Shown piece after piece: positions 3,430 through 24,555 of a stretch of DNA of 64,000 nucleotides. Position 1 is the stretch's first letter; each line of letters opens with the position of its first letter. The stretch is from contig OZ024743.1 in assembly GCA_964016885.1 (NCBI GenBank), positions 151,094,001 through 151,158,000 of the forward strand, read 5' to 3'. The position numbers and the translations under genes are program-made. Below the pieces are notes generated by a model. It saw only the letters and a list, made by a program, of their open reading frames with translations, made no database searches and was not told the DNA's origin. The stretch is from Eledone cirrhosa (Eukaryota).

Positions 3430-4847
3430 CTCACTATTGTGAGCAAATGGAGGCCCCCATTGCTGGTTGCCCTGCGGCCCCAGTGGACAGAATGGAGAAG
3501 GCGTTTCCGTGGATGGTTAGGGAAATGTTTGGAAGAGTCATTCCACCTTGTGAGGCTCACACCTGTGGGTAGCCAGCTCTGTGCCGATGGTGGTGAGCAG
3601 GGAGTTCTCCACTGCCACGGGCCCGACCGCAAACCTGGAGAACAACCAATATTTGGAGAGTTTACTCTCCTCAGCCTGAAGTACAGCAGAGCCTGGGTTA
3701 GTTGCAGACTGCACCAGGTTGCTGCTGGATAATATGTTGCTGCATGTGATATCCCAGAATAGGAAGATAGTCATGCCATCCCCTCAGTCCAGCCCTGCTG
3801 GCACGAGCTGGGAGGGGAAGCCTGCAGTCTCCAAGCTATGCTTTATGACCTCATTGAGAGAAACATGGCGTATTCCAACAAGGAGGTTGTTGAAGTTCTT
3901 CTACAATGGAGAGAGCTGGTTTTGTCTTTTCCTGACACAGTAGAGGTCAAATGGAGACAGAGAGTTTGGGACAACATGCATTTGAAGGCTACCTTTGACT
4001 CTCTCTTCGACTAATCAGATCAGTTCTCAAGGTGCCACCTACTGTCTGCTAGCATCAGATTCTCAGGAGACTGGGTTGAATCCCTACCCATGGCCAACAT
4101 CAGTGGCCTACTCAGCTTGGACAAGCTTTGTGTCTCCATTGCCCTTAGAGTGGGAACCAATCTCTGTATAGGACTGAAATGTCAGTGCGGTAGGCTTCTT
4201 GACTCCACAGGCTTTCACGGCCTATCTTTGTGTCACACTGAACTAAACCTCATCATAAAGAGGGCTTTGGCTCAGGCAAACATCCTCTCAATTTTGGAAC
4301 CACCTGGGTTGTTTAGAATTAATGGGAAAAGGCTTGATGGTCTTACCCTGTGCCCCTGGATAAGAGGCAGGTGTCTTATCTGAGATGTCACAGTTAGTGA
4401 CTATTTTGCTTCTTCCCACATCCTGGATGCTGCAGTTAGGGTGAGAACTACTTCTTCTGTAGCCGAATGGTACAATATTCTGAGATACCGAAATCTGTCA
4501 GTTAACAACCTTTTCTAGCCTGTGGGGTTGGGCCGCTGTCTGCAAGGTTCTTGTCATCACTGGTGATGCTCATGAGGGCGCTTGGCTGTTCCAGCGCATC
4601 AGACTCACCATCACCCAAGGTAATGCTGCGAGTGTGCAGGCTTGCCTCAGATATTATTAGAGAGGTTCCAGTGCTCCTCGCGATTTCGTTTTCTTTTGTT
4701 ATGGCAGCAGTTCGTTTGTACAACCCTTTCGCTTGTCTTTCGATGTCCGAGATGTGTAGTACCTGTTTTCTGTTGTTGTTTTTTTATATTTGTAATATTG
4801 TTTATACAATTGTGAATAAAACTTGTAACGCATAAAATAAAAAAAAG
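3430..4847 (+). mobile_element. Decayed CRE-clade non-LTR retrotransposon (RT thumb to RLE, A-rich tail)
   Basis: Peptides LPMANISGLLSLDKLCVSIALRVG..CQCG..GFHGLS, HTELNLIIKRAL..LEPPGL..GKRLDGLTLCPW..GRCLI, and AWLFQRI..I.QGNAASV. Contains stops and deletions. Same family as 18842-24560. Confidence 0.85.
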
Positions 4848-10679: not shown

Positions 10680-11292
10680 CTGTCTGAACGAGAATTTCAC
10701 ATGTGCGTGTGTTCGATTCTGTGTCTGCAAATTTTTCCTAGTTTGTTAAAGTTTGCTGCGTATTCGAAATGTAGGTCGACACATTCCAACGAAAATGGGG
10801 TACTGCTAATTAATTTTTTTATATATATTCACACAACACCAGATCCTATCATTTTTTTTCTTTTTTCGGGGTCACCACTTATAACAAATTACTGGTGTGT
10901 ATGAATATAACAAAACACTAGGTTGTGTATATAACGTTTAATTAACAATTTGAGGTTATGTAGAACAGTATAGTTGACATGTCAATGAGTAGTAGATGAA
11001 AGAATGAAGTAAAGTTATTTGTTAGCGTTTTGAAGTTAGCTCGCAAGAGGCCATGTTAGGGTTGCCAGACGAACGCGCCTGGCCGAAGGGCCAGGCAGGT
11101 TAGAAGACCAGGAGCCGAAAGGCAAATGAAGGTAGAGAGCTGAAAGTTATTCCCTTTATAGGTCCTGAGATGGAAGTGACAAAAAGGGCTCTGCCACCCC
11201 CAACTGGAAGCAACTCCAACTACTTCCTGTCTAGAGAGCGTTACTCTATTGGTGATGTGATCGTCACAACAAGGGAGGCAACTCTTGCTACA
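10680..11292 (-). mobile_element. Older LTR (about 10879-11292) plus tRNA-Trp PBS and partial internal region; a relative of the TRIM at 22904
   Basis: On the - strand it begins TGTAGCAAGAGTTGCCTCCCTTGTT and ends ..CCAGTAATTTGTTATA, followed by TGGTGACCCCGA. Shares motifs with the 22904 LTR. Confidence 0.75.
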
Positions 11293-22649: not shown

Positions 22650-24555
22650 ACTGGGTTGATGGCCTACCTGTGGCCAACGTCGGTGGCCTACTCAGCCTGG
22701 ACGAACTTCGTGTCTACATCGCCCTCAGAATGGGAGCTGACGTATGCATGGGTTTAAGGTGCCGTTGTGGCAAACTCCTCGACTCCACAGGCCTCCACGG
22801 TCTTTCTGCCGCCTGAATGCCGGCTGCTTCGCACGTCACACGGAGCTAAACCTCATCTTCAAGAGAGCTTTGGCCCTGGCGAACATCCCCCCAGTCTTGG
22901 AACTGTAGCGGTTGTCTCCCTTGTTTTGATTAGGATCTAGACGGGAGGTGGAACCCTTTCTGCAACTTCCGGTCAGAGCCCTATAAAACTAACAACGTTA
23001 AGCTTCCTTCCTCTCTCTTTGCCTTTTCGGCACCAGGTCAAGAGTCTTCTCATTTGGCTCTGCCATTAATTTGGCCAACAGGCGCCTGGCCTTAGCCAGG
23101 CGCCCTCTGCCAGCCGCGTTTGCCTGGCAATCAAAACGGTAACTACTAACTTTGTTTCATTCTAACATCTATCTTTGACATGTCAAGTATTCTATCTACC
23201 GTTAATTAAATATTATATACACAAACATTGTCTCGTTTTGTTACATTCATACAACCAGTAATCTCGCTATATTGGTGACCCCGACGTGATGGATAGATGG
23301 ATGTCCAGTCGTTCTCTGGCCAAGAGCGGTTGGCTACCTTGATATCTATCATTGATTTTTCCAAACATTCTTTTGTCGTAATTTTCATGCCTGTTACAAC
23401 ATTCTCGCCAACTTGCTACATATTTTCATTTCGATTTTTATACACTAAAATTCTGGCGGGAGGTTATGTAGCGGTTGTCTCCCTTGTTTTGATTAGGATC
23501 TAGACGGGAGGTGGAACCCTTTCTGCAACTTCCGGTCAGAGCCCTATAAAACTAACAACGTTAAGCTTCCTTCCTCTCTCTTTGCCTTTTCGGCACCAGG
23601 TCAAGAGTCTTCTCATTTGGCTCTGCCATTAATTTGGCCAACAGGCGCCTGGCCTTAGCCAGGCGCCCTCTGCCAGCCGCGTTTGCCTGGCAATCAAAAC
23701 GGTAACTACTAACTTTGTTTCATTCTAACATCTATCTTTGACATGTCAAGTATTCTATCTACCGTTAATTAAATATTATATACACAAACATTGTCTCGTT
23801 TTGTTACATTCATACAACCAGTAATCTCGCTATAGAACCATCTGGGTTGTCCAGAAGTGATGGCAAAAGACCTGACGGCCTTACCCTGTGTCCCTGGTCG
23901 AGAGGCAGGTGCCTTGTCTGGGCGTCATTGTTCGTGACTCTTTTGCTCTCTCCCACATCCTGGATGCTGCGGTTAGGACGAGAGCCACAGCTTCCGCAGC
24001 CGAGCGGAGTAAGACCCTCAAATACTCTGATCTGTCGGCTAGCTACCTTGTTCAGCCTGTGGCTTTCGAGACGTTTGGGGGGAGTCGGGCCGCTGACAGG
24101 TTCCTCTCTTCACTGGCGGCTCACCTAATAGAGGTAACTGGCGAATCTCGCGAGGGCGCTTGGCTGTTCCAGCGCATTAGCCTCGCCATCACCCGAGGTA
24201 ACGCTGCGAGTGTGCTGGCTTGCCTCAAAAGTCATTAGGGAGGTCGCCCAGTACCCTTCGCTGCTGTCTTTTGCTCTGGTGTTGGCTCGGTTGTTCACCC
24301 CTTCCTTTACATTTTCTTTACTGTTTCAAACGAGGATTTGTTTGTTTGTTTTTTTAGTACTGTTTGGTATTTCTTCTTACGTTTCCACACAGTTTTTTTT
24401 CCTCTCTTCTTTTATTTAAACATTGCCTTTCTCCCTTCCCTTCCCCTAAATCTTTTCCTTACTTTCGTTATTTAATTTTTTTCCCTCTTTTTTTTTCTTT
24501 TTGTTATTGCAAACATTATATAACCGAATTGAAATTTGTCTAATAAATAAAACTT
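22650..24555 (+). mobile_element. CRE-clade element, 3' part (CCHC + RLE, T-rich 3'UTR), split by a TRIM insertion
   Basis: WVDGLPVANVGG..CRCGK..GLHGLS..RHTELN..LEP|..DGKRPDGLTLCPWSRGRCLVW..KYSDL..VQPVAFETFGG..WLFQRISLAITRGNAASVL. Confidence 0.92.
22904..23834 (+). mobile_element. Non-autonomous LTR retroelement (TRIM-like): LTRs 22904-23271 and 23467-23834, 195-bp internal region
   Basis: Two 368-bp direct repeats with no difference seen by eye, termini TGTAGCG..CGCTATA. PBS TGGTGACCCCGACGTGAT (23273-23290) is complementary to the tRNA-Trp 3' end. Purine-rich GGCGGGAGG precedes LTR2. 4-bp TSD GAAC at 22900-22903 and 23835-23838. Confidence 0.95.

What the first reader, a model, noticed from the sequence alone, without database searches (positions are those of the whole stretch)
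22904..23834. Very young TRIM-like miniature LTR retroelement primed by tRNA-Trp, nested in a CRE
A 931-bp non-coding element: two 368-bp LTRs with no difference seen by eye, only 195 bp internal, an 18/18 PBS for tRNA-Trp, a PPT-like tract, and a 4-bp GAAC TSD whose removal restores the CRE frame (LEP). Both LTRs end in TATA rather than canonical TACA, so the non-canonical end was propagated through retrotransposition. Identical LTRs imply recent or ongoing mobilisation by a Gypsy-type partner. TRIMs are mainly known from plants, with few animal reports, and I know of none from cephalopods.
Basis: partly seen in the sequence, partly recalled or inferred. Interest (0 to 1): 0.75.

Follow-up and report, generated by a model that had tools for sequence, protein, structure and literature searches.

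The report
Single shrunken retrotransposon from primer misjump
This 931-base jumping gene is a single shortened copy of a common 2.1-kb gene-less element, not a miniature family; it was likely made in one copying error when DNA copied from the tRNA primer landed at the wrong spot, which suggests one way miniature retrotransposons can be born.

Summary
The anatomy is real: identical 368-bp LTRs, a 195-bp interior, an 18/18 tRNA-Trp PBS and a GAAC duplication. It is not a TRIM family. Its junction occurs once in the 3.0-Gb genome, while 289 sites keep the undeleted form. The parent is a ~2.1-kb non-coding LTR family (1,162 exact LTR starts). About 1,165 bp were lost between two GTGAT words, the first being the PBS end. 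TATA ends, Trp PBS and 4-bp TSD are the published CsRn1-clade norm; a coding CsRn1-type family sharing the 3' UTR is the likely helper. The family carries a natural marker: 307 copies have a two-mismatch PBS and 76 the exact tRNA complement. Rearrangements at the PBS end occur in 13 of 76 exact-PBS sites and 0 of 307 mismatched ones (p=3e-10). So the copy likely came from tRNA-templated plus-strand strong-stop DNA that jumped by microhomology. Two other stand-alone deletions arose the same way, each single-copy. Reads did not bridge the junction (inconclusive). The scan already noted the fold-back products and the tRNA read-through on other DNA of this genome; the deletion class and the full marker count were not in the notes I saw.

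The parts
22900..22903 (+). Left copy of the 4-bp target-site duplication (GAAC)
   Evidence: empty form with one GAAC in public contigs
22904..23271 (+). 5' LTR, 368 bp, TGTAG...CTATA; TATA-like box 22980-22988; GC-rich inverted repeat 23081-23104
   Evidence: 99% identical to the nearest family LTRs
23273..23290 (+). Primer-binding site, exact 18-nt complement of the tRNA-Trp(CCA) 3' end; most family copies carry two mismatches here
23286..23290 (+). GTGAT microhomology at the deletion junction: last 5 nt of the PBS and also parent interior position 1180; about 1,165 bp missing relative to L010
   Evidence: junction single-copy
23286..23466 (+). Last 181 bp of the parent interior, 100% identical to the 29 best-matching parent loci
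23455..23463 (+). Polypurine-tract-like sequence, similar to the partner family's PPT region
23467..23834 (+). 3' LTR, identical to the 5' LTR
23835..23838 (+). Right copy of the target-site duplication (GAAC)
22650..24303 (+). Host: broken 3' fragment of a multicopy non-LTR element (restriction-like endonuclease region; CRE label recalled, not tested), interrupted by the insertion
   Evidence: 69% match to window 4070-4728 on both sides of the insertion

Best explanation
[quoted passage not shown] Shown: single copy, parent structure, junction microhomology, exact-tRNA PBS, 13/76 versus 0/307 association, partner homology and chimeras. Inferred: the strand-transfer step, co-packaging, and which integrase acted. 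The copy keeps LTRs, PBS and PPT but has not amplified in this assembly; whether it retains a packaging signal is unknown.
For: Junction single-copy; 289 undeleted sites; parent interiors 1295-1431 bp in 23 of 29 loci. The junction sits on GTGAT, which occurs at only two other places in the 1,360-bp parent interior. PBS types after the LTR end: 76 exact, 307 two-mismatch. All 76 exact sites were read or placed (the 13-site C14 array in part): 13 sites, 12 events, are rearranged at the PBS end. All 307 mismatched sites are accounted for: 297 continue normally and 10 are point variants; Fisher p=3e-10. Both PBS types end in the same GTGAT, so repair-type deletion would be expected to hit the commoner type more. 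The exact PBS is scattered over the LTR tree (21 changes, shuffled mean 23.7, 84 of 500 shuffles as low), so it is not one subfamily. Other junctions show PBS-end microhomology: 7 nt in L130, 3 nt in L119, L121, L124, L125. Partner family: CHCC Gag, RT-RH-IN, 3' UTR 92.6% over 485 nt and 96-97% over 140 nt to the parent interior; L162 has a parent-type 5' LTR and a partner 3' LTR inside one GGTT duplication; L115, L122 and L130 join the PBS to partner sequence. Ty1/Ty3 make a tRNA-bearing dead-end strong-stop DNA (PMC5371799 passages); HIV-1 deletions with junctions at the tRNA copy are reported (PMC12657518 passages).
Against: No intermediate was observed. Simple stand-alone deletions number only 3 (p=0.005 alone); the strong statistic rests on pooling fold-backs and partner captures. 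L118, L120 and L122 show zero exact suffix match (only offset or imperfect homology). L115 may be an ordinary PBS-to-PBS transfer onto the partner. The patterns need an exact LTR end, so diverged copies are missed; the one-mismatch PBS class has no denominator. No listed contig or read bridged the junction. The LTR tree was poorly resolved (46 of 69 inner branches open). Parent and partner LTRs align only loosely (234 identities over 341 aligned, 113 gaps).
Confidence: 0.75

Rival explanations
1. A full-length copy that already had the exact PBS lost its interior by microhomology-mediated repair after insertion, or by an ordinary minus-strand template switch between the two GTGAT words.
For: 5-nt microhomology fits both processes; about 50 intact exact-PBS loci exist, including the nearest LTR relatives L086 and L060; minus-strand switching is described as the most widely accepted source of large deletions in HIV-1.
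Against: Neither process should prefer exact-PBS copies, yet 0 of 307 mismatched copies are rearranged at the PBS end and 3 of 3 simple deletions carry the exact PBS. Identical LTRs leave little time after insertion (divergence under 0.8% at 95%).
Confidence: 0.13
2. It is a member of a true TRIM family that is mobile as a 931-bp unit, with other copies in other individuals or missing from this assembly.
For: All cis elements are present; LTRs identical; size under 1 kb.
Against: One junction in 3.0 Gb. Among the first 100 of 1,162 LTR starts listed (counted by hand), 30 of 37 same-strand neighbour spacings under 3.6 kb are 1.6-1.9 kb and none is 0.4-0.9 kb.
Confidence: 0.07
3. The short form is an assembly artefact (mis-join or collapse).
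For: No listed contig or read bridged the junction in four runs.
Against: The two LTRs match each other exactly but differ from every other LTR compared (at least 3 differences), and the 4-bp duplication matches; a join of two different copies would break both. The tool warns that holes prove nothing.
Confidence: 0.04

Closest known systems
TRIMs (biv-TRIM PMC6934838; ta-TRIM PMC4558846; plant TRIMs PMC4717578; Helenus/Ajax PMC10886601)
   Same: Under 1 kb, two direct repeats, PBS and PPT, no coding sequence, TSD; plant TRIMs are proposed to derive from internal deletions of larger elements.
   Different: Single copy, not a family; 368-bp repeats exceed the 100-250 bp of the narrow definition; the immediate parent is itself non-coding. 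The 2.1-kb parent fits only the broad (<4 kb) definition quoted in PMC4558846.
CsRn1 clade of Ty3/Gypsy (PwRn1, AgCR1-14; PMC2582038)
   Same: tRNA-Trp PBS, 4-bp TSD, TGT...ATA or TGT...AAA ends; partner has CX2HX9CX3C Gag and overlapping gag and pol frames.
   Different: The window element and its parent encode nothing; placement of the partner by RT phylogeny was not tested.
Aberrant second-strand-transfer deletions of retroviruses (HIV-1, PMC12657518; Pulsinelli and Temin 1991, title only seen)
   Same: Intact LTRs, deletion starting at the end of tRNA-copied DNA, resuming further down the minus strand.
   Different: The HIV cases read here carry 7-54 extra tRNA bases; the window junction is at base 18. 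Here the products are germline insertions of a retrotransposon, marked by a natural PBS mismatch.
Ty1/Ty3 dead-end plus-strand strong-stop DNA (PMC5371799)
   Same: Most copies keep their own PBS rather than the tRNA sequence (307 versus about 50 intact loci).
   Different: Inheritance of the tRNA copy looks leaky here (about 14% of intact loci), and the tRNA-bearing strand apparently yields integrated rearranged copies.

Membership tests
TRIM (narrow definition, PMC6934838) | Total length under 1,000 bp, non-coding | tested here: met
   931 bp, no ORF of 120 codons
TRIM (narrow definition, PMC6934838) | Terminal direct repeats of 100-250 bp | tested here: not met
   368 bp; about a third of plant TRIM subfamilies also have LTRs of 250 bp or more
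TRIM (narrow definition, PMC6934838) | PBS, PPT and TSD | tested here: met
   PPT short
TRIM (narrow definition, PMC6934838) | Dispersed family mobilised as the short unit | tested here: not met
   1 junction in the genome
CsRn1 clade (cis features of the element and parent) | tRNA-Trp PBS | tested here: met
CsRn1 clade (cis features of the element and parent) | 4-bp TSD | tested here: met
   20 of 21 distinct elements with both ends in a locus
CsRn1 clade (cis features of the element and parent) | LTR ends TGT...ATA or TGT...AAA | tested here: met
   ATA in 23 of 23 parents; AAA in partner copies; norm
CsRn1 clade (partner family) | CHCC Gag signature CX2HX9CX3C | tested here: met
   L166 Gag
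CsRn1 clade (partner family) | RT-RH-IN order, no env or chromodomain | tested here: met
   Pfam on the two L166 frames; no other frame of 200 codons between its LTRs
CsRn1 clade (partner family) | RT/RH phylogeny with CsRn1 and Kabuki | not testable with these tools
Aberrant second-strand-transfer product | Junction at the end of tRNA-templated DNA with intact LTRs | tested here: met
Aberrant second-strand-transfer product | Direct evidence from reverse-transcription intermediates | not testable with these tools
   needs extrachromosomal cDNA sequencing

The most novel reading that the evidence does not exclude
The tRNA-bearing strong-stop DNA that is a dead end in Ty3-like elements is a standing factory of TRIM-sized elements: it builds complete LTR-PBS-PPT-LTR minis in one step, resets their PBS to the exact primer, and this 931-bp copy is a newborn TRIM caught before amplification. 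The PBS mismatch would then be a natural barcode that lets assemblies report which plus-strand pathway made each copy.
Probability: 0.3. Interest if true: 0.65.

Novelty: new variant of a known kind. Interest (0 to 1): 0.4.

Why it matters
TRIMs are thought to arise by internal deletion, but the papers read here do not name the step that makes the deletion. This family supplies a built-in marker that separates tRNA-copied from RNA-copied primer sites, and every rearrangement at the primer end falls in the tRNA-copied class. That makes the birth of miniature elements testable from assemblies alone, and it extends a yeast and retrovirus mechanism to germline insertions in an animal. As a report of a new TRIM family, the finding fails.

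Tried and rejected
TRIM family: rejected. TATA end as a novelty: rejected. Exact-PBS subfamily as the explanation of the association: not supported by the tree. A tRNA-Trp gene matching the two-mismatch PBS: none among the 86 matches; one gene (L186) matches the one-mismatch PBS of L122 and of partner copies. First partner candidates: the C14 array (L077, L111-113) is a segmental array of the non-coding element, and L078/L079 are not coding; the L062-type coding family shares only the PBS region. L084 also has a GAAC duplication but unrelated flanks. Read support: contigs of X1 and X4 and RAD-seq reads of X15 and X16 did not bridge the junction; inconclusive. The empty-site joint in X1 and X4 cannot show polymorphism because the host is multicopy. 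No RNA holder listed. A direct genome-wide count of all short-interior copies was not obtained, so short forms with junctions away from the PBS end are only sampled (listing; L033, L185). Pulsinelli and Temin 1991 and Lauermann and Boeke 1997 are not held. Dfam and Repbase could not be checked. Paper searches listed no cephalopod TRIM report; searches listed no paper tying second-strand-transfer errors to TRIM origin; supplements were not read.

Full report
Observation. The element is as described. The LTRs at 22904-23271 and 23467-23834 are identical over 368 bases, the interior is 195 bases, and GAAC flanks both ends. The PBS (23273-23290) is the exact complement of the 3' end of genomic tRNA-Trp(CCA) genes plus CCA. 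The host is a broken fragment of a multicopy non-LTR element; a paralogue in the window reads through the same site, and public contigs show the empty form with one GAAC. The organism was not identified, and 'CRE' is a recalled label.

It is not a family. A search with the interior gave 1,286 candidates, 40 scored; only the window matched the whole query, and the other 39 matched from base 37 onward. The junction pattern occurs once, exact or with one mismatch. The undeleted version of the same 3' site occurs 289 times, and the LTR start 1,162 times. In 23 of 29 parent loci where the 5' LTR end could be located, the interior is 1,295-1,431 bases and every LTR ends CGCTATA; the five interiors meant for translation, of which four were printed, show no frame above 220 codons and shifting frames between copies. 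Six of the 23 have no difference between the compared parts of their LTRs, so the family is young. TSDs are 4 bases in 20 of 21 distinct elements (after merging array and duplicate rows). Relative to L010, the window copy lacks 1,165 bases between the GTGAT that ends the PBS and a GTGAT at interior position 1180; the word occurs at only 15, 1103 and 1180.

A natural marker points to the mechanism. After the LTR end, 307 sites carry a PBS with two mismatches to the tRNA and 76 carry the exact complement. No gene matching the two-mismatch form was among the 86 matches. I read the 76 exact sites (the 13-site C14 array through four stretches). Thirteen sites, 12 events, are rearranged at the PBS end: three stand-alone deletions (window; L118, interior 804, LTRs 368/369, TSD kept; L120, interior 139, 5' LTR truncated), one deletion in a three-LTR element (L121), five fold-backs (L117, L119, L124, L125, L126/127), one deletion with filler (L128) and two joins to partner DNA (L115, L130). 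Each junction other than the fold-back type appears once. L129 is a point variant and L033 is deleted 24 bases further on; both were counted as not rearranged. Of the 307 mismatched sites, 297 continue normally and the other 10 are point variants. Fisher p is 3e-10 on sites, 2e-10 on collapsed events, and 0.005 for the three simple deletions alone. On a tree of 74 LTRs chosen for coverage and identity, the exact PBS needs 21 changes against a shuffled mean of 23.7, so it arises repeatedly; support on that tree is weak.

Model. In Ty1 and Ty3 the first plus-strand strong-stop DNA copies the tRNA and is a dead end, so the PBS is not inherited from the primer (PMC5371799, passages); retroviruses inherit either form about equally (PMC7472051, section 13 read). 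This family sits between: about 50 of about 357 intact loci have the exact PBS. Selection by tRNA fragments could also skew that ratio (same section). I infer that the tRNA-bearing strand sometimes anneals by its last bases to a wrong place. Landing near the 3' end of the minus strand gives the window element in one step, with LTRs identical by construction and the PBS reset to the tRNA sequence. Exact microhomology is 5 bases here, 7 in L130, 3 in four others, and 0 in L118, L120 and L122, where homology is offset or imperfect. HIV-1 deletions joined at the tRNA copy are reported (PMC12657518, passages). A 1991 paper on deletions from strand-transfer errors was seen only as a reference title; its content is recalled.

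The helper. A search with an integrase frame from L072 scored 146 of 3,502 candidates; I fetched 20 with long frames. Eight belong to a coding family whose 3' UTR matches the parent interior (92.6% over 485 bases in L166; 96-97% over about 140 bases in L162, L179, L180), with a Trp PBS, a similar PPT region and a similar LTR start; the other 12 show no such match. LTR pairs in L163, L165, L166 and L180 are 98.6-100% identical. L166 has a CX2HX9CX3C Gag and RT, RNase H and integrase domains. L162 has one LTR of each family within one TSD. L122 and L130 carry inverted partner pol (100% over 278 bases; 97.7% over 516) and L115 the partner 5' UTR right after the PBS. Co-packaging is inferred from these chimeras.

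Comparison. Trp PBS, 4-base TSD, TGT...ATA or AAA ends and CHCC Gag define CsRn1-like elements (PMC2582038, section 6 read and passages); the clade is common in cephalopods (PMC6238403, passages). The TATA end is therefore ordinary. TRIMs are defined as under 1 kb with 100-250-base repeats (PMC6934838, first fifth read) or more broadly under 4 kb (PMC4558846, passages), occur in insects, cestodes, bivalves and other animals (PMC10886601, passages), and are proposed to come from internal deletions (PMC4717578, passages). The window copy is TRIM-shaped but fails the family test; the parent is a TRIM only by the broad definition.

Limits. Reads did not bridge the junction, which neither confirms nor refutes it. 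Expression is unknown. Patterns needed an exact LTR end, so older copies were missed. Short forms with junctions away from the PBS end were only sampled. Earlier scan notes on other DNA of this genome already describe the fold-backs, the read-through and the dead-end analogy; they pointed me to PMC2582038, which I checked.

Verdict. Observation confirmed; interpretation partly supported. A single-copy mini derivative of a CsRn1-dependent non-coding family, likely born by a misplaced plus-strand jump (0.75). Novelty: new variant of a known kind. Interest 0.4.

Noticed in passing
parent interiors, e.g. L010 oriented interior 1-60: The family's PBS runs on for about 13 more tRNA-Trp-like bases with a substitution at the tRNA position-58 equivalent (numbering recalled), followed by a second degenerate LTR-end/PBS. 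Also noted by earlier scan finding e1-10321918.
   Followed up: partly
window 11292-10670, minus strand: Old 5' fragment of a sister subfamily: LTR from 11292, truncated PBS at 10877, 74% match to the LTR and to the parent 5' interior.
   Followed up: partly
L162 (G000:C3:288173000-288180500): Coding element with a parent-type 5' LTR and two-mismatch PBS and a partner-type 3' LTR inside one 4-bp duplication.
   Followed up: yes
L062-L073: All 12 loci are PBS sites of other Trp-primed LTR families with tRNA read-through; in L072 the read-through joins directly to integrase sequence, and in L067-L069 and L073 it reaches near the anticodon arm.
   Followed up: partly
L188 (=L121) and L033: Three-LTR elements whose first cassette is a mini unit (interiors 186 and 55 bp) with the exact PBS and whose second has the mismatched PBS; in L188 LTR1 matches LTR3 (349/351) and the middle LTR differs.
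   Followed up: partly
G000:C1:315541900, C2:220936063, C2:280683094: Recurrent 46-bp tandem duplication of LTR end plus extended PBS.
   Followed up: no
G000:C14:21370177-21464595: 13 copies of one element, mostly at about 5.7-kb spacing, a segmental array.
   Followed up: partly
runs X5 and X6 on window 23286-23488: Contigs of two other organism labels hold the parent's 3' interior at 0-1 differences over 137-189 nt: shared recent family or transfer; not examined.
   Followed up: no
G000:C4:353.39-353.49 Mb: Array of about 36 tRNA-Trp-like matches; one checked is a tRNA-Trp gene.
   Followed up: partly
window 31751-32120 and 35275-35644: 370-bp inverted pair, 96.8% identical, inside fragments of an endonuclease/RT non-LTR element; looks like a local inverted duplication.
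   Followed up: no
window 38160-39966: 1.8-kb TA microsatellite that explains the six overlapping long frames there.
   Followed up: yes
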